From Patescibacteria group bacterium (lineage in GTDB: Bacteria; Patescibacteriota; Minisyncoccia; Moranbacterales; DUUL01): a stretch of DNA of 64,000 nucleotides. A program made the translations under genes and the position numbers. The notes under the pieces were generated by a model. It saw only the letters and a list, made by a program, of their open reading frames with translations. It was not told the DNA's origin and ran no database searches. Position 1 is the stretch's first letter; each line of letters opens with the position of its first letter. The DNA lies in NCBI GenBank assembly GCA_034660175.1, contig JAYEIQ010000004.1, positions 4,152-68,151 of the forward strand, given 5' to 3'. Below are positions 1 through 27,023 of the stretch, piece by piece.

Positions 1-97
1 CACATGAGCAGGAGGTTGCAGTTTTGACAGTAATCGAAATGATGGTTAAATAGGAAACAATTCAACAAACATTTGAAAGAGAAAAGGAGAAACGAAA

Positions 98-421
98 ATG
101 AAGAAGATCATGAAAAGTATGATGGTAGTAGTAGTTTATTTGGTGATATCTGGAGCAGTTTGCTGGGCTGGAGAGTATCAGTTTCAGGCAGGTGACAAGT
201 TTCCACAATTTCATCTTACACCAGTTGGACTTTCTATTTGGGGTAGTGCTATAGATAATGCAACGGGATTTAACAATCTAACTGTTCTAGAAGAAGACGT
301 TCCGTATGAGACAATTAAAGCTTGGTATGGGACCATGTTGGTAGCAAGGATAGCAGACAGAGTTGTTCGTATTATTTATGATGACAGTTCTGGCAAAATC
401 ACCAAGGTGATTCCATGGTAA
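98..421 (+). CDS. small secreted hypothetical protein
   Basis: 107-aa ORF with hydrophobic N-terminus (MKKIMKSMMVVVVYLVISGAVCWAG) resembling a signal peptide; AAGGAG RBS about 12 nt upstream; no recognisable family. Confidence 0.4.
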   Translation: MKKIMKSMMVVVVYLVISGAVCWAGEYQFQAGDKFPQFHLTPVGLSIWGSAIDNATGFNNLTVLEEDVPYETIKAWYGTMLVARIADRVVRIIYDDSSGKITKVIPW

Positions 422-465
422 AAGCTGTATATTAACGTTTTAAATATTTGGAGGGACAACGAGAG

Positions 466-513
466 TAGATCCCCTGACTTGGAAAAGTAACAAGCAGGGG
501 ATTTTATTTTGGC
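466..513 (+). terminator. hairpin followed by T-rich run downstream of ORF 98..421
   Basis: ATCCCCTG ... CAGGGGAT inverted repeat (8-bp stem, long loop) followed by TTTTATTTTGG. Confidence 0.35.
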
Positions 514-600
514 TGGATTTTTTTGCTTGTGAGATAGAATCAAAGTATTATTTTTAATTTGTTAGTTTCGTGAAAACAAATTAATCATAAAAAACAGAAA

Positions 601-759
601 AATGGAAAAGGTAGTGATGAAACTGAAAAAAGTTAATCGCTATAGTTATTCTTTAATTATTCCAAAAGAATTTATTGCAAAATACAGTTGGAGAGAGCGT
701 CAAAAATTTGTAATCAAGGATAAGGGAGGAGGGGCTGGAAATAAGAGATTGGAAAAATA
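601..759 (+). CDS. AbrB/MazE/SpoVT-type (swapped-hairpin) small DNA-binding protein
   Basis: 52-aa ORF (below ORF-track cutoff): MEKVVMKLKKVNRYSYSLIIPKEFIAKYSWRERQKFVIKDKGG...; pattern K-V-x-x-x-YS-l-IP-x-E-f and +E+QK-f-V-I matches the AbrB N-domain fold; paralogous to ORF 5923..6105. Confidence 0.5.
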
Positions 760-862
760 GATAGCTATCAAGTCTGGATTTTGTCATTGTTTCAATGTAT
801 ACTTATCGTATGTGACGCTGGATTGTGTCAGATGTGGTTTGTTATGATAAAAATAATAAAAA

Positions 863-1413
863 ATGAATATAAAAGGATACATCAAAGAATCAATTAAAGT
901 AAAGCAAATCATTCTTGAGAGTGAGAAGTTGATGGAGTTATTAAAATTTTGAATGGATGTTTTGTTGATTTGGGAAGATGTTGGTTACTTGGAATGGCGG
1001 AAGCATTGTTGATTCACAACACTTTGTTGCTGAGATTGTTGGCAGGTACAAGTTGGGGCGAAGGGGCTATCCAGTAATTGTTCTAACTACAGACACTTCC
1101 ATTTTGACTGCTTGGACAAATGATTATGAATACGATACTGTATTTGAGAGGCGAATTGAAGCTTTAGGAGAAGAGAAGGACGTTTTTTTGGAATTTCAAC
1201 TAGTGGTAATTCAAAAAGTATTGTTTTAGGTGTTGAAAAAGCGAAAAAAATGGAATGAGCACAGTTTATTTGTTGGGCAAAAATGAAGGTGAGCTGAAAG
1301 ATTTGGCAGATATATCGATTATTATTCCATCGAAAAACACACTAAGGATTCAAGAGGCATATATAATGATAGTTCATATTATTTGTGAAGAAATTGAAAA
1401 GAGTTTTAAATAA
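863..1413 (+). pseudogene. gmhA: phosphoheptose isomerase (GmhA/DiaA-family SIS domain) pseudogene with multiple frame disruptions
   Basis: GmhA-like segments spread over three frames: MNIKGYIKESIKVKQIILESEKLMELLKF (then TGA at 950), ...[39 protein letters not shown]...[19 protein letters not shown] (frame shift in T7 run 1183-1189), [19 protein letters not shown] (shift in A7 run 1244-1250), GMSTVYLLGKNEGELKDLADISIIIPSKNTLRIQEAYIMIVHIICEEIEKSFK; NGGSxxDSQHF, ISTSGNS and C-terminal motifs align to E. coli GmhA; N-terminal region additionally shortened. Confidence 0.65.
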
Positions 1414-1418
1414 AAAGT

Positions 1419-2936
1419 ATGAAAAAAGAAAACAGAAGATTCTTTAAAATTATTAAAAGATTTGATAAGAGAAGCATCTGTGTAATCGGGGATTTGATGC
1501 TTGATCAATTTATTTGGGGAAAAGTTAAGAGGATTTCCCCAGAAGCTCCAGTTCCGGTTGTGCTTGCGCAGAAAGAGACCTTTGTCCCTGGTGGTGCAGG
1601 TAACACTGCATTTAACATCGCATCTCTGGGAGGTAAAGTTACTTTAGTTGGTGTTGTTGGTGATGATTTATGTGGTGAACAATTGAAAAAGGAGCTTGAA
1701 AAAAGGAGAGTAAATGTTATGGGGATTGTTGTTGACAAAGGAAGACTAACCACACAAAAAACTAGAATTGTGGCAGAGAATCAGCACGTTGTGCGTGTGG
1801 ACAGGGAAAATGTTGAGAAGGTTGATGCTAAGATTTCAAAAGATATTTTTGATTTTGTCGTTAAGAACATTACGTATTTTGATTGTTTGGTTGTTTCTGA
1901 CTATGCGAAAGGGATGATTGAGAAAGAGTTGGCGCAGGGACTTATTGGACTTGCCAAAGAAAATAAAAAAATGATTGTGGGGGACATTAAACCTTGGCAC
2001 GCGTCGTTTTTTCAAAATATAGATCTCATTACTCCAAATTTAAAGGAAGCTCAAGAAATTTCAAAGAGAGATAATGTTGAGAGGATGGGGAGGGTTATTC
2101 AGTCGAAATTACATTGTAATGTTATCATCACTAAAGGCGCAGGAGGATTAAGCGTTTTTGAGGGTAAAAATATTAGTAATTTCTCAACTCAAACGAGGGA
2201 GGTCTATGATGACCCAGATGTCTATTATAAAAAAGATGACAGTCCCTTGACCAAGGCGGATTTGGCGTCAGAGAAAGTTCTTCTTGATCGTCTCAAAGAA
2301 TTTGGTGATTTTGGATTTTTGTCTGAGGAAAGTGCCGATGATAAATCAAGGTTGGACAAAGAATATACTTGGATTATCGATCCATTGGATGGAACAATGG
2401 ACTTTATTCAAAAGACAGGAGAATTTTCAGTGATGGTTGGTTTGGTGAAAGGTGGGTTGCCAGTAATGGGTGTGGTCTATCAACCATCAATTGAGAAAAT
2501 ATATTTTGCAGAGAAAAGCAAAGGGGCTTTTGTGCGAATCGGTCAGGGAGCTGAGATCAAACTACGAGTTTCGCAAGTTTCTGACTTGAAGGAGGCTCGT
2601 TTGGTGGTGAGTCGCAATCACTTGAGCAAAAGGGATAGCTCTGTTGCAATTGATATGGGATTGGGTAACTATGTTCAAGCAGGCTCGAATGGAGTGAAGA
2701 TGTGTTTTATTGCTCAGGGGAATGCAGAACTGTTTTTCAACTCATGGACAGGATTTGGTGAATGGGACAGTTGTGGTCCGGATTTGATCTTGAGAGAGTC
2801 TGGAGGAGTGGTAACTGGTATGGATGGAAAACCGCTCAAATATAACAAAGAAGTTCCAAAAAGCGATCGTGGCATTGTTGCCAGCAACGGATTGCTTCAC
2901 GATGACATAATCAACAACTTTGCAAAAAGGAAATGA
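1419..2936 (+). CDS. fusion protein: HldE domain-I-like heptose-7-phosphate kinase (pfkB family, C-terminally truncated) fused to CysQ/inositol-monophosphatase-family phosphatase
   Basis: N-terminal 300 aa align to E. coli HldE kinase domain (ISPEAPVPVV, PGGAGNTAFNIASLGG, VVSDYAKG, TPNLKEA ... TQTREVYD); C-terminal half aligns to CysQ (EVYDDPDVYYKKDDSPLTKADLASEKVLL..., WIIDPLDGT, WDSCGP); junction at shared VYD; ribokinase GAGD motif absent. Confidence 0.7.
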   Translation: MKKENRRFFKIIKRFDKRSICVIGDLMLDQFIWGKVKRISPEAPVPVVLAQKETFVPGGAGNTAFNIASLGGKVTLVGVVGDDLCGEQLKKELEKRRVNVMGIVVDKGRLTTQKTRIVAENQHVVRVDRENVEKVDAKISKDIFDFVVKNITYFDCLVVSDYAKGMIEKELAQGLIGLAKENKKMIVGDIKPWHASFFQNIDLITPNLKEAQEISKRDNVERMGRVIQSKLHCNVIITKGAGGLSVFEGKNISNFSTQTREVYDDPDVYYKKDDSPLTKADLASEKVLLDRLKEFGDFGFLSEESADDKSRLDKEYTWIIDPLDGTMDFIQKTGEFSVMVGLVKGGLPVMGVVYQPSIEKIYFAEKSKGAFVRIGQGAEIKLRVSQVSDLKEARLVVSRNHLSKRDSSVAIDMGLGNYVQAGSNGVKMCFIAQGNAELFFNSWTGFGEWDSCGPDLILRESGGVVTGMDGKPLKYNKEVPKSDRGIVASNGLLHDDIINNFAKRK

Positions 2937-4618
2937 TTAGTCCTCATGGTGGCAAATTGGTTGACAAGACTTTTGTTGGTGATGCAAGTGCTGAGACTGC
3001 TCGATTGAGAAAGATTGTGGCAACATTGAAAATTGGTCCGAATCAAATTCAAGATATTGTCAATATAGCTCAAGGGGTGTTTTCGCCCCTTGATGGTTTT
3101 TTGAGGGAGAACGAATTTCTATCTGTTTTGAATGAAATGCGTTTGAATGATGGGACGGTTTGGCCGATTCCTATTGTTTTAGATGTTCTAACGGCTGAGA
3201 AAAAAAGATTAGAACAACAAGAAAAAATTCTTTTGATTGATTCAAAAAATCAGCCAGTTGCTTTTTTGTCGAACTCTTCTTTTTTTCGTTTTGATAAAGA
3301 AGAATTTGCTTTGAAAGTTTTTGGAATCACGGATCAAAATCATCCTGGAGTCAGGGATGTTTTTGAGATGAAGGAATTTTTAATTGGAGGGAAGATTGAG
3401 TTGATTGGGCAGTTTCGAGAAAGTGTTGTCCTAAAGAGTCCTGCAGAGATTAGAAGTGAATTTTTGAAGAGGGGTTGGGAATCAATTGTTGCTTTTCAAA
3501 CTCGCAATGTTCCACACAGGGGGCATGAATTTTTACAGAAGGAGGCTTTAAAAAAAGTAGACGGATTGTTTGTCCAGCCAGTGATTGGAGAAAAGAAAAT
3601 GGATGATTTCAAAGATGAGTATATTATTGGGAGCTATGAGATTTTGATTGAAAAGCATTTTCCTGCTGGTAAGGCAATGCTTGGTGTATTGCCACTCAAA
3701 ATGCGTTATGGTGGACCAAAGGAAGCGTTGCTTCATGCAATCATTCGCAAAAATTTTGGTTGCACCCATTTCATTGTTGGTCGTGATCATGCTGGGGTGG
3801 GTGATTTCTATCATCCAACGGAAGCACAGGAAATATTTGAACAATTTGGTCCAAGCGAGCTTGGAGTTGAGATCTTGAAATTTCCAGAGGTGGTGTTCGA
3901 CAAAGAAAAAGGAAAACACTGTTTTGTTGACGAATGCTCTGAATCGAATAGGATAAGGTTCAGTGGCACAAAGTTGAGAGATTTTGTGAAAAACAAGAAA
4001 GAGCCTCCAAGACACTTGATCAGGCGTGATGTGTTCGAGTTGCTCTCGAGTAGTGATAATTCGTTAGTTGATGAAAATTACAAAATGAAAACAAGCAAAA
4101 GAGGATTTGTTCTTTGGTTCACAGGATTGTCTGGTGCAGGAAAAAGCACTGTTGCGGATTTGGTTTTTGAGCATCTGAGGGGTAATGGCACCAGAATTGA
4201 GAGGCTTGATGGTGATGTTGTCCGGGAGAATTTGGCTCAAGATCTTGGTTTTTCCAAAAAAGATCGTGACGAGAACATTCGTCGAATTGGTTTTGTAGCA
4301 GACCTGCTTTCTCGCAATGGAGTGGGAGTGATTGCTTCTTTTATTTCTCCCTACCAAAAACAGCGAGATGAGCTGCGCAAAGAAGTCGAGAATTTCATTG
4401 AAGTTTTTGTGAATGCTCCTTTGGAGATCTGTGAGGAGCGAGATCCAAAGGGAATGTATAAAAAAGCTCGAGCGGGTGAGATCAAGAACTTTACTGGAAT
4501 TTCTGATTCCTATGACTCACCAAAAGACCCAGACATTGAACTGAGAACTGACAAGGGAACACCAAGAGAGTGTGTACAGCAGGTGATAGATTATTTAGAC
4601 GAAAAAGGCTTCATTTAG
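2933..4618 (+). CDS. bifunctional sulfate adenylyltransferase (ATP sulfurylase) / adenylylsulfate kinase (PAPS synthase)
   Basis: N-domain motifs QTRNVPHRGHEFL and VGRDHAGVGDFY (ATP sulfurylase); C-domain P-loop GLSGAGKSTVA and APS kinase-like region; ATG overlaps upstream TGA (ATGA) indicating translational coupling. Confidence 0.85.
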   Translation: MISPHGGKLVDKTFVGDASAETARLRKIVATLKIGPNQIQDIVNIAQGVFSPLDGFLRENEFLSVLNEMRLNDGTVWPIPIVLDVLTAEKKRLEQQEKILLIDSKNQPVAFLSNSSFFRFDKEEFALKVFGITDQNHPGVRDVFEMKEFLIGGKIELIGQFRESVVLKSPAEIRSEFLKRGWESIVAFQTRNVPHRGHEFLQKEALKKVDGLFVQPVIGEKKMDDFKDEYIIGSYEILIEKHFPAGKAMLGVLPLKMRYGGPKEALLHAIIRKNFGCTHFIVGRDHAGVGDFYHPTEAQEIFEQFGPSELGVEILKFPEVVFDKEKGKHCFVDECSESNRIRFSGTKLRDFVKNKKEPPRHLIRRDVFELLSSSDNSLVDENYKMKTSKRGFVLWFTGLSGAGKSTVADLVFEHLRGNGTRIERLDGDVVRENLAQDLGFSKKDRDENIRRIGFVADLLSRNGVGVIASFISPYQKQRDELRKEVENFIEVFVNAPLEICEERDPKGMYKKARAGEIKNFTGISDSYDSPKDPDIELRTDKGTPRECVQQVIDYLDEKGFI

Positions 4619-4645
4619 AGTTGAATACTTGGTCTGATTTTTGGA

Positions 4646-4666
4646 CAGCCTCCAGGCTGGTTTTCG
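4646..4666 (+). terminator. putative intrinsic terminator after PAPS synthase gene
   Basis: CAGCC-TCCA-GGCTG hairpin followed by GTTTTCG. Confidence 0.35.
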
Positions 4667-4739
4667 TTAGGAATGTGATATATAATGTTTTTTATAGCAG
4701 AAAAATAGAGAAGTGAACATCAAGCAGTAAACAAGTGCC

Positions 4740-5858
4740 ATGAAGGTTTTGTTGTTAAATTATGAATTTCCACCAATTGGAGGGGGTGCAGCCACTGCCA
4801 CCCTCAATTTATTGAGGGAGTTTTCCAAAAGAAACGATGTTGAAGTGGATTTGATCACTTCATCTGTTGATAAAGAGAGGCAGGAGCAATTCAGTGAGAA
4901 TATCAAGATATATTTTTTGGACATTGAAAAAAATGGAAGATTGCACAATCAATCCAATGCTGATCTTTTGAAATATAGCTGGAAGGCTTGGAGACTTGCA
5001 AGGAAGCTGAGAAAGGAGAAAAAGTATGATCTGATCCATTCGTTTTTTGGAATTCCGTGTGGATTCGTTGCGATGTTGTTAGGGATGTCATATGTTGTGT
5101 CACTGCGAGGGTCTGATGTTCCGTTCTACAGTGAAAAATACAAATTGTTGGACACTTTGCTTTTTCAAAGATTGAGCAGAAGAATCTGGAAAAAAGCAGA
5201 TGTTGTTATTGCGAACTCTGAAGGTTTGAAAAAACTTGCGTTAAAGAGCTCACCAAAGCAAGAAATTGGTGTGATTTACAATGGGGTGGATACGGAAATT
5301 TTTGCTCCATCACAAAAAAAGCCAGAGGAGTTCACAATTATTTCAACTTCAAGACTTGAAAAACGCAAAGGGCTTGAATTTTTAGTTGAAGGGTTTGGAA
5401 AATTTAACAAACAATACAAGGACAGTAGATTGATCTTGATTGGTGGTGGTGATCAAGAGAATAAGCTTAGAAAAATATCTCATGATTTGGGTGCTGAGAG
5501 TGTAGTTGATTTTGTGGGCGTTCTTGATTTAGGCGAGCTTTCAAAGTGGTATAAGAAAGTGGATGTTTTCTCGTTGCCTTCATTCAACGAAGGCATGAGC
5601 AACTCTCTTTTGGAAGCAATTGCAAGCGGGTTGGCAATTGTTGCGACTGACACTGGAGGAACAAAAGAGTTAATAAATGATTCAAACGGTATTATTGTTG
5701 AAAAAGGTAGCAGTGAGGATGTTTTCAGGGCGTTTGAGAAACTGTACACGGACAGGCAATTGCTTGAATCAATGAAAGAGAAAAGTCGAGAAAAAGCACT
5801 TGTGATGAGTTGGATAAATATGTCAAATCAGTATTTAGAGGTATATAAAAAAGTATAG
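4740..5858 (+). CDS. GT-B glycosyltransferase, family 4-like
   Basis: 372 aa; N-terminal EFPPIGGGAATATLNL (GT4 N-domain), C-terminal FSLPSFNEGMSNSLLEAIASGLAIVATDTGGTKELI (Glycos_transf_1 E-x7-E region). Confidence 0.8.
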   Translation: MKVLLLNYEFPPIGGGAATATLNLLREFSKRNDVEVDLITSSVDKERQEQFSENIKIYFLDIEKNGRLHNQSNADLLKYSWKAWRLARKLRKEKKYDLIHSFFGIPCGFVAMLLGMSYVVSLRGSDVPFYSEKYKLLDTLLFQRLSRRIWKKADVVIANSEGLKKLALKSSPKQEIGVIYNGVDTEIFAPSQKKPEEFTIISTSRLEKRKGLEFLVEGFGKFNKQYKDSRLILIGGGDQENKLRKISHDLGAESVVDFVGVLDLGELSKWYKKVDVFSLPSFNEGMSNSLLEAIASGLAIVATDTGGTKELINDSNGIIVEKGSSEDVFRAFEKLYTDRQLLESMKEKSREKALVMSWINMSNQYLEVYKKV

Positions 5859-5896
5859 AGCTAGCTCTATACCTAGCTCTATACCCATGTTATAAT
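5854..5896 (+). promoter_or_regulatory. operator-like repeat array plus extended -10 upstream of AbrB-like ORF
   Basis: 18-bp perfect palindrome TATAGAGCTAGCTCTATA (5854-5871) followed by a direct repeat of the half-site TAGCTCTATACC (5874-5885), then TGtTATAAT extended -10 (5888-5896) 27 nt upstream of start 5923. Confidence 0.4.
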
Positions 5897-5922
5897 CATG
5901 CTGTAGAATTGAAACGAAAACT

Positions 5923-6105
5923 ATGGCTCAAACAAAAAAAGAAGAAAGAATAACAAGAAAGCTTCAAAGAGTAGGTAGGGGGAGAACTTACAGCATCACA
6001 ATTCCAATCGAAATTATTCGTTCTTTTGGTTGGAAAGAAAAACAAAAGTTGGTTTTTGAAGCAGATAAAAGAAGAAATGTGATCAAGATCAGAGATTGGG
6101 AATAG
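5923..6105 (+). CDS. AbrB/MazE/SpoVT-type small DNA-binding protein (paralog of 601..759)
   Basis: 60 aa: ...RKLQRVGRGRTYSITIPIEIIRSFGWKEKQKLVFEADKRRNVIKIR matches swapped-hairpin AbrB N-domain pattern (R+V...-IP.E+R......+..+......I.I). Confidence 0.55.
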   Translation: MAQTKKEERITRKLQRVGRGRTYSITIPIEIIRSFGWKEKQKLVFEADKRRNVIKIRDWE

Positions 6106-6142
6106 AATATTAATTAATTTGGAGAGATAACAATAAACTTCA

Positions 6143-6859
6143 ATGTTGAAGCTGATTAAAGACAACTGGGCCAAACTAGCTGATCAATTGGCGGGCAAGA
6201 AGCTTTACTGGTTCAAGAGTCCTTCTGGGATCTTACTTCTGGGTGCCACCGAAAAGATCTTAAATAAATATTGTAGAGGAAAAGTTTTGGATGTTGGAGC
6301 AGGGAGATTGGCATACAAATCATTGCTAGAGAAACATTGCGAGGAATATAAAAGCATTGATTTTAAGGCAACCAGTCCTGAACTTGATTTTGTTGGTGAC
6401 GTACAAGACATGGAAGTTTTGAATGATGATCAATTTGACACAGTTTTTTGTTCTCAGGTACTGGAACATATTCCAGAACCTCAAAAAGCAATGAACGAGA
6501 TCAGTCGAATCTTGAAACGCGGTGGAAAGGCGATAATCTCAGTTCCTTTTTTGGGGTATTTACACAATGAGCCTTATGATTTTTTTCGTTATACGAAACA
6601 TTCTTTGAGATTTATTTCTAAGAGAGCGGGATTTGAAGTTGTGGAAATAAATGAGGTTGGTGGATTGTTTTCCTTTCTCGGCTACATTTGGTCTACTTTT
6701 TTTATTGGGTTATTTGCTGGAATTCCATTTTTGGGATATATAGTATTGTTAGTAAATATTCCGCTTTCATATTTTTTTATTTTACTTGATGTTGTTACGA
6801 TGAATAAGAAACTGATGCCATTGAACTATCTTTTTATTCTTAAAAAAAGGGATGTATAA
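6143..6859 (+). CDS. class I SAM-dependent methyltransferase with C-terminal hydrophobic segment
   Basis: motif I VLDVGAGRLAYKSL, FDTVFCSQVLEHIPEPQKAMNEISRILKRGGKAII (Methyltransf_11-like); C-terminal TM-like stretch. Confidence 0.7.
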   Translation: MLKLIKDNWAKLADQLAGKKLYWFKSPSGILLLGATEKILNKYCRGKVLDVGAGRLAYKSLLEKHCEEYKSIDFKATSPELDFVGDVQDMEVLNDDQFDTVFCSQVLEHIPEPQKAMNEISRILKRGGKAIISVPFLGYLHNEPYDFFRYTKHSLRFISKRAGFEVVEINEVGGLFSFLGYIWSTFFIGLFAGIPFLGYIVLLVNIPLSYFFILLDVVTMNKKLMPLNYLFILKKRDV

Positions 6860-7961
6860 AATAGGGTTTGTTGTAAGAGCAATAAACAAGGGTGGAGGTG
6901 TAAAAATGGTTGTAAAAAATTTGCTGAAAAAAATTGATTTGTTGATGTTCACAAAGAGAGATTTGCAATTCATTGTCTATGCTGACAAGGAATATGATTT
7001 CTTGAGAGGATTGAAAAATATTAAAGTGGAAATTATTAAAAAACACAATGTGCTGCTGTGGGATAATATTTATCTGTATTGGAAACTAAAAGGAGATGGT
7101 TTGGATTGTGTTGTTTATCCCAAAAATGTTATCCCTCCTTCAAATCTCTCTTTAAAGTGCAAAAAGATGATTATTGTTCACGATTTAGCACATTTCAAAC
7201 AAGGTCTTAATGCATATAAATTTTGGGATGTTGTTTATATGAAAATGATGATAGGTGCTTCTTGTAGAAAAAGCAACCATATATTTTCAATTTCAGAGTT
7301 TACTAAAGAGAAAATAGTGAAAGAATTTAACATGAATGAAAGTAAAATCACGGTAATTCATGAGGGGGTAGAAAAAAAATTCAAAGAAATAAATAACAAA
7401 AAATTATTAAGCGAGGTGGTTGATAAGTATGGATTACAATTGCCTTTTTTTCTATATCCTGGATCAATCAGCCCGCGGAAAAATATTCTCAGAATTTTGG
7501 AGGTTTTCAATAATATCAAACATGAGATTCCTCACATGCTCTATTTTACGGGAGCGCGAGGGTGGAAAAATAAAGAGGTTTGGGAATATATAAGAGAAAA
7601 AAATTTGCAAAAAAGAGTTAAAAAAATAGGATATGTCAAGGAGAATGAACTCCCAATCTTTTATAATCTTGCAGATCTGTGTTTGTATCCAAGTCTCTAT
7701 GAGGGTTTTGGGTTGCCTATTCTTGAGGCACAGGCATGTGGGTGTCCCGTATTGACGTCCAATGTTTCAAGCTTGCCGGAAGTTGCAGGAAATGGAGCTG
7801 CTATTGTTGATCCATACTCAACGGAAGATATAAAAAAAGGTATATTGAAAATACTCAGAGACGGTAAATATCGAGAGGTGTTGGTAAAAAGTGGTATGGA
7901 GAATGTAGGAAGGTATAGCTGGAAAACATCTGCGAAGAAGATTGTTGAAAAAGCATCTTAA
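6852..7961 (+). CDS. GT-B glycosyltransferase, family 4-like
   Basis: 369 aa; C-domain motif YPSLYEGFGLPILEAQACGCPVLTSNVSSLPEVAG; start overlaps upstream gene by 8 nt. Confidence 0.8.
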   Translation: MYKIGFVVRAINKGGGVKMVVKNLLKKIDLLMFTKRDLQFIVYADKEYDFLRGLKNIKVEIIKKHNVLLWDNIYLYWKLKGDGLDCVVYPKNVIPPSNLSLKCKKMIIVHDLAHFKQGLNAYKFWDVVYMKMMIGASCRKSNHIFSISEFTKEKIVKEFNMNESKITVIHEGVEKKFKEINNKKLLSEVVDKYGLQLPFFLYPGSISPRKNILRILEVFNNIKHEIPHMLYFTGARGWKNKEVWEYIREKNLQKRVKKIGYVKENELPIFYNLADLCLYPSLYEGFGLPILEAQACGCPVLTSNVSSLPEVAGNGAAIVDPYSTEDIKKGILKILRDGKYREVLVKSGMENVGRYSWKTSAKKIVEKAS

Positions 7962-7979
7962 ATTTAGGTAAAATCTTTT

Positions 7980-8864
7980 ATGGCAGAGAGTGATTTCAAA
8001 ATTGACTTTGTTGGTGTCGGGGCGGAAAAAGCGGGTAGTTCATGGGTTGCTGCCATGCTTGATGCGCATCCTGAAATTTGTCTTTCGCAACCGAAAGAAG
8101 TGCAGTATTTTAATGAAAAATCAAGTTATACAAGGGGATTGAATGCAAACTTCAACAAGGGTTTTGGTTGGTATGAAAAGCACTTTATCCATTGCAAAAA
8201 AAACTCAATTAAAGGTGAGTTTTCCACTGCCTATTTGCCAGATAAAACTGCTCCTAAAAAAATATTTCAGAGTTTTCCGGGAGTAAAATTGATCGTCTGT
8301 TTGAGAGATCCCGTTGATAGAATGTACTCCCAGTATTGGATGTATAAGAATTATTTTCTCAAAGAAAAAAGACCTTTTAGTGAGGTCGTGAGAGAGGAGA
8401 AAGAATATACAGAAAAAAGTCTGTATTTTAAACAGATAAAAGAATATCTGAAATATTTTTCACTTGAGAATATCCTATTTATAACACTTGATGAGATAAA
8501 GGAAAATCCGAAGATATGCCACAAAGCGTTATACAAGTTCGTTGGGACAAGGAATGTGGACTTTGTTCCAGGGAAAGGTGTCTTTGGGAGAAAAAATAAG
8601 GCGAAGAGAGTTAGATTTAGGTCTGGGCTTGTTCTAATTAACAGATTATCAAAGATATTCATATTTTTAGGTTTCTCTCGAGTTTTGAAAGTTCTTGTTA
8701 AGTACGGGTTCAAGGACTTTTGTTTGAGAATAATTTCGGATGAAAGTAGATATCCTCCAATAGACAAAGGATTGAGAAGCGAGTTGATTAAAAAATTTAT
8801 TTCTGATATTGACGATTTTGAGAGACTGACGGGAAAGAACTTAAGTTCATGGAAAAAAACATGA
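7980..8864 (+). CDS. sulfotransferase-family protein (PAPS-dependent, Sulfotransfer_3-like)
   Basis: N-terminal 5'-phosphosulfate-binding-like loop GVGAEKAGSSWVAAML (cf. PKSGTTW) and 3'-phosphate-binding-like RDPVDRMYSQYW; size and layout typical of bacterial sulfotransferases; co-located with PAPS synthase. Confidence 0.6.
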   Translation: MAESDFKIDFVGVGAEKAGSSWVAAMLDAHPEICLSQPKEVQYFNEKSSYTRGLNANFNKGFGWYEKHFIHCKKNSIKGEFSTAYLPDKTAPKKIFQSFPGVKLIVCLRDPVDRMYSQYWMYKNYFLKEKRPFSEVVREEKEYTEKSLYFKQIKEYLKYFSLENILFITLDEIKENPKICHKALYKFVGTRNVDFVPGKGVFGRKNKAKRVRFRSGLVLINRLSKIFIFLGFSRVLKVLVKYGFKDFCLRIISDESRYPPIDKGLRSELIKKFISDIDDFERLTGKNLSSWKKT

Positions 8865-9994
8865 GACATTCAAAAAAATTAAGAGTAGCTCTTTTGACGC
8901 CAGATTTTCCTCCAAACCCGCGAGGTGGTTGTGGTGTAAGTTCTAACTTACTTGTGCAAGAGCTTAGAAAGTTGGGTTTATGTGTTGATGTGTATAGAGT
9001 AGGAAAGAAGGAGATAGCAGAGAAAAGCTCAAGTGGCAACATTTATCACTTTGTTGGTTTTCGGAAAGTTCCTATGATCAATAATTTGTTTGCGGTTATT
9101 CTTCTTCGCGGGAGGCTAAAAAAATATGATATAATACATGTCTACAATATGAGTCTTATCCCTGCAGCTGTACTCCTGAAGGGGAGAGATTCAAAAATAT
9201 TTGCCACTATCAACAACACAAATGGAGCTGTCGCTAGTACCTTTGTTGGAAAAAGAAAATTCAAGAATAAGATTAATGACTGGTTAACAACGTGGATGAT
9301 TAAACTTTTTAGAGGTGGTGTAGATTGCTATATTGCGCTCACTGCTTTTTTGAGGAGGCTGTATATTGAAAATGGTTATGTTGGTCACAAAATCAAAATG
9401 GTGCCGAATATGTATGATGAAATTTTTGTGGCAAAGCGCAATAAAGAGAGCAGAAAAGATGGGCATGTAAGGATTTTGTACGTTGGTCAGCTTGGTGACA
9501 ATAAGGGCGTATTGGATTTAGCTGTAGTGTGTAAGGATTTGTTAAATGACAAAAAATGGAAAGATAAACTGAAGGTAAAAATAATAGGAGATGGAAAGTT
9601 GAGGGGGGTAATTGAGACAATTTTAAAGAGGGAGATAGAGAGTGGTTCGGTCGAGATCTTTAACGAGCAATATGAAGATCTCCCTGATGAATATTGGAAC
9701 TCAGATCTGCTTATTCATCCTGCAAAATGGGATGAGCCCTTTTCAAGAACCTGGCTTGAAGCCATGGCTTCAGAGTTACCCATTTTATCATCGGACAATT
9801 CTAGTGCCAAAGAAGTTCTTGCTGGTTATGCTATTTTTTTCAAAATGGGAGATAGAGAGAGTTTGAAAAGAGCCATGTTGGAATTTTTAAAAAACAAAAC
9901 AAGGGAAGACGACGGTTTTTTTGTTGAAAGATTTAACCCGAAGAAGGTAACGAATAAAATAGTAAAATATTATCAAATAGAACATGAAATATAA
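8849..9994 (+). CDS. GT-B glycosyltransferase, family 4-like
   Basis: 381 aa; N-domain LLTPDFPPNPRGGCGVSS; C-domain AKWDEPFSRTWLEAMASELPILSSDNSSAKEV; alternative start at 8861. Confidence 0.75.
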   Translation: MEKNMRHSKKLRVALLTPDFPPNPRGGCGVSSNLLVQELRKLGLCVDVYRVGKKEIAEKSSSGNIYHFVGFRKVPMINNLFAVILLRGRLKKYDIIHVYNMSLIPAAVLLKGRDSKIFATINNTNGAVASTFVGKRKFKNKINDWLTTWMIKLFRGGVDCYIALTAFLRRLYIENGYVGHKIKMVPNMYDEIFVAKRNKESRKDGHVRILYVGQLGDNKGVLDLAVVCKDLLNDKKWKDKLKVKIIGDGKLRGVIETILKREIESGSVEIFNEQYEDLPDEYWNSDLLIHPAKWDEPFSRTWLEAMASELPILSSDNSSAKEVLAGYAIFFKMGDRESLKRAMLEFLKNKTREDDGFFVERFNPKKVTNKIVKYYQIEHEI

Positions 9995-11198
9995 CATTCA
10001 CTACTTTAACGAGGCTTTGTATCCTGGCATGTCGGCAAATAAAGTTGCAAGAGTAGAGATGGCCAATTCATTCTTGAGGGTTGATAAGGTTGAAGGAGTG
10101 TTTTTTTGGTTTCTCAGTAATCGATATTTTTTTAACGAAAGGTCCTGTTTTGCAAATCAGTCACTGGATAAAGGGGTTACCCCTAAGAGAGTTTGGGTAC
10201 CTTTTTTCTCTGACCCTCTTGAAGTGACTGGAACAAAGATTGATAAGGCTGTCAGATTTGTAACAAAAAGGGTATTGTTTCTATGGGCTCTAGTTTTTTT
10301 TGCTATAAAAAGATTTGAAAAAAGTGACCTGGTTTTCATTAGAGGAGAACAATTTGTTCTTGCTTTTTGTCTGGGGGCTTTATTGAAAAATGTGAAATTT
10401 TCTTTTGAAGTTCACAATTATGAATTCGGAAAATTTTTTTTAAGAGATTTTCTCTATAGGAGAGCCAGCAAAAAGGCGAACGTTATAATTGTCATATCTG
10501 GCTATTCAAGAAATCACATGGTCAGAAATGGTGGTATCAAAAGCAGTGCAATTGTGAACCTTCCAAGCGGAGTTAATATCCAGAGATTCTCTGAACTTAG
10601 TGGAGACAATGCAGACTATGATTTAAGATTGGAGATTGGTGCTAGAGAAAATGCTAAAATAGCCATCTATACTGGAAGTTTACATAAGAACAGAGGGATA
10701 GAAGACATTTTGTTCTGTGCTAAAAAAACTCCCAACATCGAATTTGTTATTGTGGGAGGTAATAAGAGTCAAATAGAAGAGTATTTATCAAAACCTGATG
10801 GTGATGCAAAAAATATTCATTTTGTTGGCTATAAATCTAATAAATTGATTCCATCTATTGTAAGTCAAGGGGACGTATTGTTGGCGCCATATTCAAAAAA
10901 AATTAAAACTGTTATGCATATGAGCCCAGTGAAACTTTTCGAATATGCAGCAGCTGAAAAACCAGTGGTGGTTTCTAATATATCAGCTATAAGAGAGATT
11001 TTCAACGATGACGAGGTTAATTATTTTACTCCTGATGATAGGCGTGATTTGCTGAGATGCACAAGAGAAGTTTTCGATAACTATGATGTTTGTCTAGCTA
11101 AAGCAGGAAGGGCAAAAAGAAAAGCTGAGCTCCATTCTTGGGATAATCGAGCGAAAACAATCTTTAAATTATTAAAGAAGGATAATGAACAAAAATAA
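9984..11198 (+). CDS. GT-B glycosyltransferase, family 4-like
   Basis: 404 aa; C-domain APYSKKIKTVMHMSPVKLFEYAAAEKPVVVSNISAIREIF (Glycos_transf_1-like); overlaps neighbours at both ends. Confidence 0.7.
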   Translation: MKYNIHYFNEALYPGMSANKVARVEMANSFLRVDKVEGVFFWFLSNRYFFNERSCFANQSLDKGVTPKRVWVPFFSDPLEVTGTKIDKAVRFVTKRVLFLWALVFFAIKRFEKSDLVFIRGEQFVLAFCLGALLKNVKFSFEVHNYEFGKFFLRDFLYRRASKKANVIIVISGYSRNHMVRNGGIKSSAIVNLPSGVNIQRFSELSGDNADYDLRLEIGARENAKIAIYTGSLHKNRGIEDILFCAKKTPNIEFVIVGGNKSQIEEYLSKPDGDAKNIHFVGYKSNKLIPSIVSQGDVLLAPYSKKIKTVMHMSPVKLFEYAAAEKPVVVSNISAIREIFNDDEVNYFTPDDRRDLLRCTREVFDNYDVCLAKAGRAKRKAELHSWDNRAKTIFKLLKKDNEQK

Positions 11199-11910
11199 AT
11201 TTGATTTGCAGAATAATCAATACAATTTTCCATATCACTATCTTGTTAATTTGAGAGAATATTCGAACTATAAGGAGCTTTCCTGGGGAATAATTTACTA
11301 TGCTTATATGAAGTATACAGTAGGGTATGTTTATAAGTCGGGCTGTAAATCATTGTTAGACGTTGGCTGTGGTGATGGGAGGTTGATAAGTGAGCTTGCT
11401 TCCAGTGATAGCAGTGGGAGTTATGTGGGGGTGGATCTCTCCGAATCGGCTATATTGTTGGCCAAGGCAATGAACCAGAATCTTAAGAATGCTAAGTTCT
11501 TACTGAAAAATGTTGGTCAGATAGAGGGAGAGTTCGACATCGTTGTGTTGAATGAAGTCTTGGAGCATATTCCTGACGAAGATCTTGGTGTTTTTACCGG
11601 GAACGTCATGAATAAGGTTAAATCAGGTGGTGTGTTAATAGTAACTGTCCCTTCGGTTAACGTGAAACTCAACGAGAAACATTTTAGGCATTATAATCTT
11701 GAGATGCTAAGAAAGCAGTTCGAGAAATTAAAATTACTAGAGAATGAAACAAAATATCTTTTTAAGAAAAATCTTTTTTACAAAATAATTAGAATATTTG
11801 CAAAAAGATTTAGATGTCCAAAATTGGAGTTGTTTCTGGCAAAAAAATTTTTATTTAATGCCAGAGATAAAAACTGTACCGACATTTTTGTTGTTTTTAA
11901 AAGAAAATGA
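11185..11910 (+). CDS. class I SAM-dependent methyltransferase
   Basis: LLDVGCGDGRLISELA (motif I), FDIVVLNEVLEHIPDED, SGGVLIVTVP. Confidence 0.7.
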   Translation: MNKNKFDLQNNQYNFPYHYLVNLREYSNYKELSWGIIYYAYMKYTVGYVYKSGCKSLLDVGCGDGRLISELASSDSSGSYVGVDLSESAILLAKAMNQNLKNAKFLLKNVGQIEGEFDIVVLNEVLEHIPDEDLGVFTGNVMNKVKSGGVLIVTVPSVNVKLNEKHFRHYNLEMLRKQFEKLKLLENETKYLFKKNLFYKIIRIFAKRFRCPKLELFLAKKFLFNARDKNCTDIFVVFKRK

Positions 11911-11913
11911 ACC

Positions 11914-12810
11914 ATGAGTAATAATTTTATTAGAAGAACTTGTTGTCCTGTTTGTGGAGGAAGAAAGAGAAGGGCTATTTATTTAAAGTCTTTCTCAGAT
12001 GACGATATTTGGGATTATTTGAATGAATTCTATGAGTCGAAAATCTCCAAGGACATTATAAAAGATGATTTTTACAGCATTGTAAAGTGTAAGAATTGTA
12101 GTTTGTTGTACCAGGAGTATATACTCAGTGATAAAAACATGTATTTGCTGTATGAAAATTGGATTTCCGCAGAAAGTAGTCTCCAGAAGAAAATGGTCTC
12201 TGATATTAAATTGTTTGAACAGTATGTTCTTGAGCTTAGGAGAATTTATTTGTTTCTCAAAAAGATGCCACATGAGATTAATGTTTTGGAGTATGGAATG
12301 GGGTGGGGATTCTGGTCAAGATTGGCCAAAGCATTAAATTTTAAAGTAACTGGAGTTGAGCTTTCCGAATCCAGGGTTGAATTTGCTAGGAGGAATGGAG
12401 TTAAAGTGATTGATGATATAAAAAAAGAATTGGATTGTGTTTATGATTATGTTTATTCGAATCAGGTTTTTGAGCATCTAACAGAACCAAAGAAAGAATT
12501 GATTGAATTGGCTAGAGTTTTGAAGCCAGGAGGCATTATAGATATCAAGGTTCCTAATTGTCAAAATTTTGAGAAAAAATTTGGTAAAATTAATTGGAGA
12601 TTAGGATCAAAACCAGTTCATCCACTAGAGCACATAAACTGTTTCAGTCGTCAATCTTTGAAGATATTAGCTAATCAAGCCAAGCTAAGTCTTGTTAGGC
12701 GTCCGTATTCTTTCGCGTGCTTCGGGATAAATTCATGTATAAAGGGTCATATCGAGTATATTAACGATGCATTTTTTTCAACAAACGTTTATATGAGGAA
12801 GAATAAGTAG
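11914..12810 (+). CDS. SAM-dependent methyltransferase with N-terminal Cys4 zinc-ribbon
   Basis: CCPVCGG ... CKNC zinc-ribbon; MTase motifs VLEYGMGWGFWSRLA, VFEHLTEPKKELIELARVLKPGGII. Confidence 0.65.
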   Translation: MSNNFIRRTCCPVCGGRKRRAIYLKSFSDDDIWDYLNEFYESKISKDIIKDDFYSIVKCKNCSLLYQEYILSDKNMYLLYENWISAESSLQKKMVSDIKLFEQYVLELRRIYLFLKKMPHEINVLEYGMGWGFWSRLAKALNFKVTGVELSESRVEFARRNGVKVIDDIKKELDCVYDYVYSNQVFEHLTEPKKELIELARVLKPGGIIDIKVPNCQNFEKKFGKINWRLGSKPVHPLEHINCFSRQSLKILANQAKLSLVRRPYSFACFGINSCIKGHIEYINDAFFSTNVYMRKNK

Positions 12811-12831
12811 TAAGAGTATAAAGAAAGTGTC

Positions 12832-14145
12832 ATGAAGAAAACAAAGAAGTGGATTAAAAACAGATTGGGAACCAAAAACAGGGAAAGATTTTTTTTTCTT
12901 TTCAGGCTAATCAAATATCTCAGGAAACAGACAAGGAGAATTTTCAGAGATCTTGGATCTGATGGTAGGTCAGAATTATTGCTTCCTAGTGAAGAATATT
13001 TCATTGAAGACAAGAATGTCTTTTTCGGTTATTATGATAAAAGTCCTTTTAGTGATAATGGAGAAGTTATTCTGGTACAAGTTGCTAAAGGTCAAAACAA
13101 ACATCCTCAAGTGGGTGATGAATTGATTGTTGGCTTTTTTTGCAGGCAGGCAGGCTCTTCTGGAAGAGGAATTGTTGAGTTAGGCAGGACTACCACATGG
13201 TGCTGGCAACAAGGTTGCAGATTGCAGTGGTTTCCTGGGGATGGGAGCAAAAAAATTATCTACAACAAATTGATAAATAAACGGTTTTCCTCGGTGGTTC
13301 AAGACACAGAAAGCAAAAGAGTGGTTAAGTCGCTTAGTTTTCCTGTGTATGATGTTGATCCAAGCGGGTCTTGTGCCTTAACATTGAGTTTTTCCAGACT
13401 ATATCGGTTAAGGCCAGGGTATGGCTATGCTGGGATTATTGATGAGACAATAGATGAAAAGATACCGTCTAGTGATGGAATCTGGCTTGGAAATATCAAG
13501 AAAAACGAAAAGAGTCTTTTATTAAGTTTAGAAAAAATTTCACAGATGGATTGGAATGAGAAGATGGTTGGGGCACAGCACTATGTAAATTTTATTTCTT
13601 ACAACAAGGATGGTAGTAAGTTTGCTTTTTTGCACGTTTGGGAAGGGGGGGAGGGGAGATCTGTGAGGTTAATGATTTTTGATTTTGCAAGAGGTGAGCT
13701 ATCTGTTGTTGGACAAGGTCATGAGATGGTTTCTCATTACTCTTGGATTGATGATAGTTCAATAATTTTTACATCATTAGCGAAAAAAGGATATGGAATA
13801 TACTACACATACAATACAATCTCAAAAGAAACTATAGTTGTAGGGGGGAACGAACTGACTGGAGACGGGCATCCGAGTGCTTGTGGTGATTCCTCTCTTT
13901 TCATTACAGACACGTCTGCTGATGAATATGGTGAGCGAAAATTGATTCTATTCGATGGACTTAAGGGCAAAAAGAGAGAACTTTTTAGGTTAGTCGATCC
14001 GATTGGATTTTGGGGTGAGGTGAGGTGTGACTTCCATCCAAGGTGGGATAGTTCTGGGCGCTATGTTTGTATTGATTGTCCTGTAAGTGGGAAAAGGAGA
14101 ATGTCGGTTTTTGATCTCAGTGTTGTTCTGAGGGATTTTTCTTGA
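12832..14145 (+). CDS. hypothetical protein (possibly beta-propeller-like), part of glycan island
   Basis: 437-aa ORF, no confident family; repeated hydrophobic/Gly-Asp turns; contains in-frame G7 tract at 13645-13651. Confidence 0.4.
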   Translation: MKKTKKWIKNRLGTKNRERFFFLFRLIKYLRKQTRRIFRDLGSDGRSELLLPSEEYFIEDKNVFFGYYDKSPFSDNGEVILVQVAKGQNKHPQVGDELIVGFFCRQAGSSGRGIVELGRTTTWCWQQGCRLQWFPGDGSKKIIYNKLINKRFSSVVQDTESKRVVKSLSFPVYDVDPSGSCALTLSFSRLYRLRPGYGYAGIIDETIDEKIPSSDGIWLGNIKKNEKSLLLSLEKISQMDWNEKMVGAQHYVNFISYNKDGSKFAFLHVWEGGEGRSVRLMIFDFARGELSVVGQGHEMVSHYSWIDDSSIIFTSLAKKGYGIYYTYNTISKETIVVGGNELTGDGHPSACGDSSLFITDTSADEYGERKLILFDGLKGKKRELFRLVDPIGFWGEVRCDFHPRWDSSGRYVCIDCPVSGKRRMSVFDLSVVLRDFS

Positions 14146-15331: not shown

Positions 15332-15357
15332 CGCACTCTCTTATATTATGAGATTTG

Positions 15358-26645: not shown

Positions 26646-26797
26646 GGACTTATTTTTTATTTTTAGTTGAGGTAATTTTATGCGAATATCTGGAGCATGT
26701 TCCAGATAAAATGAGTGAACCGACCGTGGGAATCAAGTTCCGATATCACAAAGCTTTATAGGTAGGCCCACAACCTATGTTTATCCCGTTACACTTG

Positions 26798-26871
26798 AGC
26801 CGAAGATGAGATTCGAACTCACGACCTACGCATTACGAGTGCGTTGCTCTAGCCAACTGAGCTACTTCGGC
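26798..26871 (-). tRNA. tRNA-Thr (anticodon CGT)
   Basis: reverse complement GCCGAAGTAGCTCAGTTGGCTAGAGCAACGCACTCGTAATGCGTAGGTCGTGAGTTCGAATCTCATCTTCGGCT: 7-bp acceptor, D-arm, anticodon loop CT-CGT-AA, GTTCGAATC T-loop. Confidence 0.8.
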
Positions 26872-27023
26872 GCTCAAGTGTAATGGGACATTGCTCCTCG
26901 CCCGACTGAACGACGTCAATCGTTCGGGCGGGTACCAACTGAGTTATATTGGCTAAATGTAGAATTTGAGCTGGTAACGGAAATTGTCTATCTATTATAG
27001 ATAAAAATCCTTTACTTATCTTG

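What the first reader, a model, noticed from the sequence alone, without database searches (positions are those of the whole stretch)
863..2936. Vestigial ADP-heptose pathway: gmhA pseudogene followed by an HldE-kinase::CysQ fusion whose kinase domain is cut off exactly at a shared VYD tripeptide
GmhA-like peptide segments are scattered over three frames, with a premature TGA at 950 and at least three 1-nt indels (near 973, in the T7 run 1183-1189 and in the A7 run 1244-1250). The next ORF aligns over about 300 aa to the E. coli HldE heptokinase domain up to ...TQTREVYD. It then continues directly as CysQ (E. coli CysQ ...AIMQVYDGTKPMDVVSKADNSPVTAAD vs EVYDDPDVYYKKDDSPLTKAD). The ribokinase-family catalytic GAGD segment (about 55 aa) and the first about 18 aa of CysQ are missing. 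This looks like an in-frame deletion or recombination at a micro-homology. The heptose pathway therefore appears inactivated, while the CysQ domain (DPLDGT, WDxxG intact) is retained next to PAPS synthase. That suggests it now serves PAP recycling for the sulfotransferase.
Basis: partly seen in the sequence, partly recalled or inferred. Interest (0 to 1): 0.7.

Follow-up and report, generated by a model that had tools for sequence, protein, structure and literature searches.

The report
Dead heptose genes fused to duplicated cysQ
In a Patescibacteria metagenome genome, a recent rearrangement joined a broken sugar-kinase gene to a second copy of the cysQ phosphatase gene; this is ordinary gene decay, because an intact identical cysQ lies three genes upstream.

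Summary
At 863-1413, gmhA is broken by four 1-nt deletions. Adding one base at each site restores an uninterrupted 184-codon GmhA. ORF 1419-2936 (505 aa) matches the HldE/HldA heptose-7-P kinase profile at positions 2-260 of 315. It then continues directly as CysQ from profile position 17. The kinase's GAGD anion hole and catalytic Asp (about 60 aa) and CysQ's first 21 aa are missing.

The window is part of a 97.6-kb GenBank MAG contig (Patescibacteria group bacterium, locus tags U9O20_). The fusion is MEA2006613.1. An intact 264-aa CysQ (MEA2006607.1) lies three genes upstream, just outside the window, and its residues 22-264 are 100% identical to the fusion's CysQ part. A separate Logan assembly of run SRR26901924 reproduces the frameshifts and the junction exactly. 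Its contig ends indicate a 735-bp perfect repeat at 2203-2937.

Relatives carry GT1-cysQ-sat/cysC-GT4-MT, so the fused copy sits at the ancestral operon position. No other kinase::CysQ fusion appears among the best 150 matches of 1.84 billion representative proteins.

This is a recent, strain-level illegitimate join plus a partial duplication, with low general interest. PAP recycling does not depend on the fusion.

The parts
863..1413 (+). gmhA (sedoheptulose-7-P isomerase) pseudogene. GenBank annotates two fragments as hypothetical proteins: MEA2006611.1 (978-1229) and MEA2006612.1 (1255-1413).
   Evidence: tblastn with an intact relative GmhA shows frames 2/1/3/2/1. NCBIfam gmhA hits on the fragments. 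The restored ORF has 184 codons. Accessions.
943..950 (+). Frameshift site 1: 1-nt loss in an A4T4 tract, which creates the TGA at 950.
972..976 (+). Frameshift site 2: 1-nt loss in GGGAA.
1183..1189 (+). Frameshift site 3: 1-nt loss in a T run (now T7).
1244..1250 (+). Frameshift site 4: 1-nt loss in an A run (now A7).
1419..2936 (+). Chimeric 505-aa ORF, kinase(1-264)::CysQ(22-264). It equals GenBank MEA2006613.1, 'inositol monophosphatase family protein'.
1419..2210 (+). [quoted passage not shown] It covers profile positions 2-260 of 315 and lacks the VSGAGD anion hole, the catalytic Asp and the C-terminal helices.
2203..2211 (+). Recombination joint, TCTATGATG. G2202 is kinase-specific and A2212/C2213 are cysQ-specific.
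   Evidence: Window sequence AGG GAG GTC TAT GAT GAC. Relatives' cysQ reads ATG GAG TTC TAT GA(A/G). A relative's kinase reads GAG GTT TTT GAT GTT. The Logan contig ends at 2232, which is 2203 plus k-2.
2203..2937 (+). 735-bp segment shared with the intact cysQ (MEA2006607.1) that lies upstream of the window. It spans cysQ codons 22-264, the stop codon and 1 nt. The catalytic motifs LSEES, DPLDGT and WD are present.
   Evidence: 100% protein identity over 243 residues. Logan contigs break at 2232 and restart at 2908, as expected for a repeat in a k=31 graph.
2933..4618 (+). Bifunctional sulfate adenylyltransferase/APS kinase (PAPS synthase, MEA2006614.1). Its start ATG overlaps the fusion's stop codon (ATGA), as in relatives.
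4740..8864 (+). Downstream part of the conserved sulfated-glycan operon: GT4 (4740-5858), small MazE/AbrB-like gene (5923-6105), methyltransferase (6143-6859), GT (6852-7961) and sulfotransferase (7980-8864).
   Evidence: Pfam. Synteny with L083, L084 and L090.

Best explanation
This is a decaying remnant of a heptose-nucleotide operon (gmhA plus an HldA/HldE-domain-I kinase). Illegitimate recombination joined it to codon 22 of the cysQ gene that heads a conserved cysQ-sat/cysC-GT4-methyltransferase sulfation operon.

Shown by tool results:
- gmhA carries four 1-nt deletions.
- The kinase stops at ...REVYD, just before the VSGAGD anion hole and catalytic Asp, so it cannot be a heptose-7-P kinase.
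- The CysQ part lacks its first 21 residues (helix alpha-1) but keeps all catalytic motifs.
- The CysQ part is 100% identical to residues 22-264 of an intact CysQ three genes upstream on the same contig.
- A second assembler reproduces the junction and the frameshifts.
- In relatives the order is GT1-cysQ-sat/cysC-GT4-MT, with the same ATGA overlap.

Inferred:
- The join formed within TCTATGATG (2203-2211; 13 of 14 nt shared with flanks), together with or soon after a duplication of cysQ. The perfect identity of the 735 bp shows that the event is recent.
- The intact upstream cysQ does the PAP hydrolysis for the sulfotransferase pathway.
- The chimeric ORF most likely stays open because translation and transcription through it feed the overlapping sat/cysC start. 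It may still have residual PAP-phosphatase activity with a dead N-terminal appendage.
For: - Domain limits and the missing motif.
- Frameshifts and the restored ORF.
- Not general sequence noise: 96 long homopolymer runs lie in intact ORFs.
- Logan contig L086 is 100% identical to window 1-2232 and L087 to 2908-12382.
- Intact identical paralogue and gene order from GenBank accessions 607-619.
- Only one cysQ lies in the window.
- Ancestral synteny and the ATGA overlap.
- The fusion is a singleton. No hit covers more than 52% of it in the 5.8-billion-protein search. None of the best 150 matches among 1.84 billion representatives combines the kinase and CysQ parts. The junction pattern has 0 hits in the genome and metagenome collections.
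- All four indels fall in gmhA and none in the 786-nt kinase part (P about 0.02-0.03 if both were equally neutral).
- The kinase remnant has 0 mismatches in 43 columns that are at least 95% conserved.
Against: - The upstream contig sequence (genes 607 and 608) could not be read, so the identity of the two copies is shown at protein level and by k-mer graph breaks, not by direct DNA alignment.
- Both assemblies probably use the same reads. A 735-bp perfect repeat makes the path U2-R-X-R-D1 an assembler's decision.
- No single simple event (deletion or tandem duplication) yields the observed order.
- No expression or activity data exist.
- The 4-versus-0 indel asymmetry is only weakly significant. 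It could instead mean that gmhA died earlier.
Confidence: 0.74

Rival explanations
1. The contig path is wrong. The chromosome carries the ancestral intact cysQ-sat/cysC operon (U2-R-D1). The segment from gene 608 through psi-gmhA and the kinase remnant to cysQ' (X-R) is then a separate circular or tandemly amplified molecule, or belongs to a co-existing strain. The assembler unrolled this loop once into the 97.6-kb contig. The kinase|cysQ joint would still be real DNA, but the fusion would not sit in front of sat/cysC.
For: Logan contigs break exactly at both ends of the 735-bp segment (2232 and 2908). This is the graph signature of a loop R-X-R, and it fits several resolutions. Short reads rarely span 735 bp. 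The relative L090 has the uninterrupted GT1-cysQ-sat/cysC order.
Against: The X segment has no replication or mobility genes. GenBank's assembler placed both copies in one long contig. GT1, which precedes cysQ in relatives, has no orthologue of at least 50% identity from this MAG, so the locus has been rearranged in any case. Read depth could not be inspected.
Confidence: 0.12
2. The fusion is a selected, functional two-domain protein. It would be an active PAP phosphatase whose catalytically dead ribokinase-like N-domain has been co-opted, for example as a sugar-phosphate-binding, oligomerisation or scaffolding module for the sulfated-glycan machinery.
For: The 264-codon kinase part has no frameshift or stop, although it has more slippage-prone runs than gmhA, which has four. 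It has 0 mismatches in 43 columns that are at least 95% conserved. All CysQ catalytic motifs are intact and the translational overlap with sat/cysC is kept. Other CysQ fusions with sulfation enzymes exist: CysC-CysQ P0304 and CysQ-sulfotransferase P0252.
Against: It is a singleton among the best 150 matches of 1.84 billion representative proteins. The 735 bp are still identical to the paralogue, so there has been no time for selection to act. The truncation removes about 60 residues of the kinase domain's C-terminus, including GAGD, and it removes CysQ helix alpha-1. The kinase profile score is the lowest of seven sequences cut at the same point (257 versus 271-323 bits). An intact CysQ lies next door.
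Confidence: 0.1
3. The frameshifts and the junction are sequencing or assembly errors, such as homopolymer miscalls or a chimeric read.
For: All four gmhA lesions are 1-nt deletions in homopolymer tracts, which is the typical error mode of some platforms. The fusion is found in one sample only.
Against: Two different assemblers give identical sequence over 2232 nt, including all four sites and the joint. Ninety-six runs of 7 nt or more elsewhere in the window lie in open ORFs. Assemblers do not join sequences at 9-nt overlaps. Two neighbouring genes of one pathway are hit.
Confidence: 0.04

Closest known systems
HldA / HldE domain I (RfaE domain I, TIGR02198; PfkB/ribokinase fold; PDB 4e84 Burkholderia cenocepacia HldA)
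   Same: Residues 12-264 align to profile positions 2-260 (E 1e-75). They are up to 55% identical to intact 315-325-aa kinases of Parcubacteria and DPANN archaea. The N-terminal substrate-binding motifs (GDxMLDxY..G...RISPEAPVP, GGAxN, NxxE) are kept.
   Different: The last 55-61 residues are absent, including VSGAGD (anion hole and catalytic Asp) and the C-terminal helices. The score of 254.5 bits is below the 345-bit cutoff. The protein continues as another enzyme.
CysQ 3'(2'),5'-bisphosphate nucleotidase (TIGR01331; PF00459 inositol monophosphatase fold; PDB 3b8b)
   Same: Residues 260-478 match profile positions 17-237. The LSEES, DPLDGT and WD metal/phosphate motifs are present. The sequence is 100% identical to residues 22-264 of the genome's own intact CysQ. 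It sits in the conserved position immediately upstream of sat/cysC with an ATGA overlap.
   Different: The first 21 residues (N-terminal helix) are replaced by 264 residues of a kinase remnant. GenBank names it only 'inositol monophosphatase family protein'.
GmhA sedoheptulose-7-phosphate isomerase (TIGR00441, SIS domain)
   Same: After restoring four bases, the 184-aa product covers the whole profile (positions 4-154 of 154). The gene order gmhA-kinase matches the relative L002.
   Different: Four frameshifts. The restored product scores 181 bits, against 228 for an intact relative and a cutoff of 209. One example of change is WNGGS in place of GNGGS.
Natural CysQ fusion proteins of sulfation pathways (CysC-CysQ, CysQ-sulfotransferase, CysQ-CysQ)
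   Same: CysQ is joined to another domain within PAPS-dependent sulfation clusters (P0304, P0252, P0275).
   Different: Those partners are complete and functionally related to PAPS metabolism. Here the partner is a truncated enzyme of an unrelated pathway and the architecture is unique.
Chimeric ORFs and pseudogenes made by micro-homology-mediated illegitimate recombination or duplication in bacterial genomes (general knowledge)
   Same: There is a short shared stretch at the joint, loss of parts of both parent genes, a neighbouring pathway gene decaying by homopolymer indels, and a perfect repeat marking a recent event.
   Different: Nothing essential. This is a further example, in a Patescibacteria MAG.

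Membership tests
HldE domain I / HldA heptose-7-phosphate kinase (TIGR02198) | Whole-domain match reaching the curated NCBIfam cutoff (345 bits). | tested here: not met
   254.5 bits over profile positions 2-260 of 315. The intact relative P0001 scores 369.9 bits over positions 2-313.
HldE domain I / HldA heptose-7-phosphate kinase (TIGR02198) | Ribokinase-family GAGD anion hole with the catalytic Asp, plus the C-terminal ATP-binding helices. | tested here: not met
   The alignment with 119 relatives ends at REVYD, whereas relatives continue VSGAGDT.... The match to PDB 4e84 ends at REVFD.
HldE domain I / HldA heptose-7-phosphate kinase (TIGR02198) | Conserved N-terminal sugar-phosphate-binding core. 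| tested here: met
   0 mismatches in 43 columns that are at least 95% conserved. 256.7 bits on profile 2-260, against 271-323 bits for six relatives cut at the same point.
CysQ 3'(2'),5'-bisphosphate nucleotidase (TIGR01331 / PF00459) | Inositol-monophosphatase fold domain above the Pfam gathering score. | tested here: met
   PF00459 scores 168.4 bits against a cutoff of 27, residues 265-501.
CysQ 3'(2'),5'-bisphosphate nucleotidase (TIGR01331 / PF00459) | Equivalog-level score for TIGR01331 (228.8 bits). | tested here: not met
   165.1 bits. The intact paralogue (179.2) and relatives (185-187) also stay below the cutoff, so this feature does not discriminate in this lineage.
CysQ 3'(2'),5'-bisphosphate nucleotidase (TIGR01331 / PF00459) | Metal- and phosphate-binding motifs (EE, DPxDGT, WD). 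| tested here: met
   LSEES, DPLDGT and GEWDS align with 3b8b and are identical to the intact paralogue.
CysQ 3'(2'),5'-bisphosphate nucleotidase (TIGR01331 / PF00459) | Complete N-terminus (helix alpha-1). | tested here: not met
   The profile match starts at position 17. Residues 1-21 of the paralogue (MITIRQLIEVVKEAGTAAMEF) are absent.
CysQ 3'(2'),5'-bisphosphate nucleotidase (TIGR01331 / PF00459) | PAP phosphatase activity. | not testable with these tools
   Needs an enzyme assay.
GmhA (TIGR00441) | Uninterrupted reading frame. | tested here: not met
   Four -1 frameshifts.
ADP-heptose pathway gene set (gmhA, hldA/hldE-I, gmhB, hldC/hldE-II, heptosyltransferase GT9) | The other pathway genes are present nearby. 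| tested here: not met
   No tblastn hit in the 64 kb for GmhB or GT9 of L002, nor for HldE domain II of four bifunctional HldE proteins.

The most novel reading that the evidence does not exclude
The chimeric protein is kept by selection as a new two-domain enzyme. It would be an active PAP phosphatase whose dead ribokinase-like N-domain has been co-opted as a sugar-phosphate-binding or scaffolding module, and translation through it drives the PAPS synthase gene. That would make it a caught-in-the-act example of domain recruitment from a dying pathway.
Probability: 0.08. Interest if true: 0.5.

Novelty: new member of a known kind. Interest (0 to 1): 0.22.

Why it matters
The value is mainly for annotation and as an example. 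GenBank records the gmhA pieces as two hypothetical proteins and the chimera as an 'inositol monophosphatase family protein'. A metabolic reconstruction could therefore wrongly credit this MAG with heptose-pathway genes.

The locus is a clean, datable example of micro-homology-mediated gene fusion plus partial duplication in a reduced Patescibacteria genome. It lies next to a conserved cysQ-sat/cysC-glycosyltransferase-sulfotransferase cluster, which predicts a sulfated surface glycan in this group. It does not open a new biological question.

Tried and rejected
- Degenerate DNA patterns for the junction peptide (EVYDDPDVYYKKDD) and for YxDPDVYYKKDD gave 0 hits in genome contigs and metagenome contigs.
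- The fusion, the intact CysQ and the 107-aa reading of the first ORF in the window (98-421) are not in the contig index, so the contig upstream of the window could not be read.
- The search for related loci with Sat/CysC found no close genome; the best match was 60% identical.
- A search with the relatives' GT1 found no orthologue from this MAG, so the gene upstream of the intact cysQ stays unknown.
- P0241, the third member of the CysQ protein cluster, is an unrelated 43-aa TARA fragment.
- P0275, which gave two matched stretches, is a CysQ-CysQ tandem and not a kinase fusion.
- A combined MAFFT alignment of the fusion with kinases and CysQs misaligned the kinases (A1). Structure prediction was therefore not run. 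It would also not have tested stability or activity, and the missing Asp is already shown by alignment.
- GC content and promoter/terminator scans around the joint were uninformative.
- Literature searches found no prior description.
- A simple deletion and a simple tandem duplication were both considered. Neither alone gives the observed order cysQ-608-609-610-psi-gmhA-kinase'::cysQ'-sat/cysC.
Full report
**Observation**

ORF 1419-2936 encodes 505 aa.
- NCBIfam matches residues 260-478 to positions 17-237 of the 250-position CysQ model (E 2e-48).
- Pfam gives PfkB at 18-264 and Inositol_P at 265-501.
- Against solved structures, the match to Burkholderia HldA (4e84) ends at REVFD and the match to a Bacteroides CysQ (3b8b) begins at IYEDP.
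- In an alignment with 119 intact kinases, the window sequence ends at ...REVYD, where all others continue VSGAGDT... for about 60 more residues.

The anion hole and catalytic Asp are therefore absent.

**The gmhA remnant**

Upstream, tblastn with an intact GmhA from a relative places the gmhA remnant (863-1413) in frames 2, 1, 3, 2, 1. These are four -1 shifts. They lie in an A4T4 tract (943-950, which creates the TGA at 950), in GGGAA (972-976), in T7 (1183-1189) and in A7 (1244-1250).

Adding one base at each site restores an uninterrupted 184-codon ORF. That ORF covers the whole gmhA profile but scores 181 bits. An intact relative scores 228 and the cutoff is 209.

**Is it real sequence?**

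- The window is 87% covered by long ORFs, and 96 homopolymer runs of 7 nt or more lie inside intact ORFs. The gmhA lesions are therefore not general noise.
- The window is part of a 97,619-bp GenBank MAG contig (Patescibacteria group bacterium, locus tags U9O20_). The fusion is MEA2006613.1, at 100% identity.
- A separate k-mer assembly (Logan) of run SRR26901924 gives a 2387-bp contig that is 100% identical to window 1-2232. It includes all four frameshift sites and the kinase|cysQ joint.
- A second Logan contig of 9475 bp is identical to window 2908-12382.

**The new key fact**

A search with the CysQ half alone found P0121 (MEA2006607.1), an intact 264-aa CysQ on the same 97.6-kb contig. 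Its residues 22-264 are 100% identical to residues 263-505 of the fusion, and its N-terminus is MITIRQLIEVVKEAGTAAMEF. The window contains only one cysQ.

GenBank accessions fix the gene order:

| Accession (MEA2006...) | Gene | Window coordinates |
|---|---|---|
| 607 | intact cysQ | upstream of the window |
| 608 | unknown | ends at 53 |
| 609 | hypothetical protein | 110-421 |
| 610 | small AbrB-like ORF | 602-760 |
| 611 | gmhA fragment | 978-1229 |
| 612 | gmhA fragment | 1255-1413 |
| 613 | fusion | 1419-2936 |
| 614 | Sat/CysC | 2933-4618 |
| 615-619 | GT4, MazE-like, MT, GT, sulfotransferase | 4740-8864 |

The Logan contigs stop at 2232 and restart at 2908. In a k=31 graph this is what a perfect repeat spanning 2203-2937 produces. 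That repeat is 735 bp: cysQ codon 22 through the stop codon plus 1 nt.

**Ancestral state**

Close relatives (CysQ 79-82% identical) have GT1-cysQ-GT4-MT. Their GT4 and MT are syntenic with window 4740 and 6143.

A further relative, L090, has epimerase-GT1-cysQ-sat/cysC-GT4-MT. Identities to the window are CysQ 60%, Sat/CysC 68% and GT4 65%, and it shows the same ATGA overlap of the cysQ stop with the sat start. L003 also has cysQ directly before sat/cysC.

The fused cysQ' therefore sits at the ancestral operon position. GT1 and cysQ codons 1-21 have been replaced by psi-gmhA plus kinase(1-264). Intact heptose clusters in relatives read gmhA-kinase-gmhB-GT9-GT4 (L002). The window has no gmhB, GT9 or HldE domain II.

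**The joint**

- The window reads AGG GAG GTC TAT GAT GAC.
- Relatives' cysQ reads ATG GAG TTC TAT GA(A/G).
- A relative's kinase reads GAG GTT TTT GAT GTT.

The crossover must lie between G2202 (kinase-specific) and A2212. That places it inside TCTATGATG. With the flanking GGAG, 13 of 14 nt would be shared. This is an inference, because neither parent's DNA is available.

**How it arose and what it does**

The perfect identity of the 735 bp right up to both ends argues for a recent duplicative rearrangement. Old paralogues homogenised by gene conversion would be expected to keep differences near the edges of homology.

Neither a simple deletion nor a simple tandem duplication gives the observed order U2-cysQ-X-kinase'::cysQ'-sat/cysC. 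At least two novel joints are needed, for example two template switches, or a duplication followed by a deletion.

Function, by inference:
- The kinase part is catalytically dead.
- PAP recycling is covered by the intact cysQ.
- The chimera may be residually active or inert.
- All four indels fall in gmhA and none in the longer kinase part, which has more slippage-prone runs (P about 0.02-0.03).
- The kinase remnant has no change at 43 near-invariant columns and only a mild profile-score deficit (257 versus 271-323 bits).

These points fit two readings. Either the events are very recent, or there is selection to keep the frame open so that translation reaches cysQ' and the overlapping sat/cysC start.

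**Rivals**

- Because the 735-bp repeat exceeds short-read length, the contig path is an assembler's choice. A chromosome with an intact cysQ-sat/cysC operon plus a separate circle or strain variant carrying X-R cannot be excluded without reads.
- Sequencing error is unlikely.
- A selected neo-functional fusion is unlikely because the architecture is unique. No hit covers more than 52% of the protein among 5.8 billion sequences. None of the best 150 matches among 1.84 billion representatives is a kinase-CysQ protein. The junction pattern is absent from the public contig collections.

**Verdict**

- This is a recent, strain-level gene-decay and rearrangement product in a Patescibacteria MAG, so a new member of a known kind.
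- Interest is low, apart from correcting the annotation. The neighbouring cysQ-PAPS synthase-GT-sulfotransferase cluster is also conserved across related Patescibacteria.

Noticed in passing
window 602-760 and 5923-6105 (+): Two small paralogous ORFs (52 and 60 aa) sit at matching places, one before psi-gmhA and one between GT4 and the methyltransferase. The second hits PF04014 MazE/AbrB-type (E 6e-7). The first has no Pfam hit and a different C-terminus. The relatives L083, L084 and L090 lack the second one between GT4 and MT.
   Followed up: partly
window 4740-17391: A large surface-glycan cluster: four GT4/GT1 glycosyltransferases, three SAM methyltransferases, a sulfotransferase (7980-8864), a 437-aa protein with no Pfam hit (12832-14145), a Polysacc_synt_3-like flippase (14117-15331, minus strand) and a 677-aa PMT_2-like protein (15358-17391, minus strand). 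Together with cysQ and sat/cysC it predicts a sulfated, methylated glycan in Patescibacteria. The core GT1-cysQ-sat/cysC-GT4-MT recurs in several related contigs.
   Followed up: partly
window 27495-27501 and ORF 27532-28536 (+): This is the release factor 2 gene (PCRF and RF-1 domains). It has a CTTTGAC motif just upstream of the long ORF, which is the classical programmed +1 frameshift site of prfB. The 5' ORF lies in another frame.
   Followed up: partly
window 26797-26871 and 27023-27095 (-): tRNA-Thr(CGT) and tRNA-Gly(CCC), confirmed by ARAGORN and Rfam.
   Followed up: yes
L086 1-208 (154 nt upstream of the window start, to window 53): This is the C-terminus of gene MEA2006608.1. It is acidic (...EEKGRDNGDQDISDENSSDEYVKIEVV...EMMVK), has no Pfam hit, and is unlike the GT4 or Sat/CysC that follow cysQ in relatives. 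The Logan contig also breaks inside this gene for an unknown reason.
   Followed up: partly
proteins P0252, P0304, P0275: Natural CysQ fusions exist elsewhere: CysQ plus two sulfotransferase-like repeats (810 aa), APS kinase-CysQ (438 aa) and a CysQ-CysQ tandem (552 aa).
   Followed up: no
window 3070-3093 (+): A strong terminator-like hairpin (10-bp stem, 6 GC pairs, T-run) lies inside the sat/cysC coding region, about 140 nt after its start. The region as a whole has 11 terminator-like sites, against 2.5 expected.
   Followed up: no
window 30993-31475, 41988-42437, 61273-63234: Housekeeping genes: mraZ, nrdR and penicillin-binding protein 2. The window is therefore chromosomal and not a mobile element.
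   Followed up: partly
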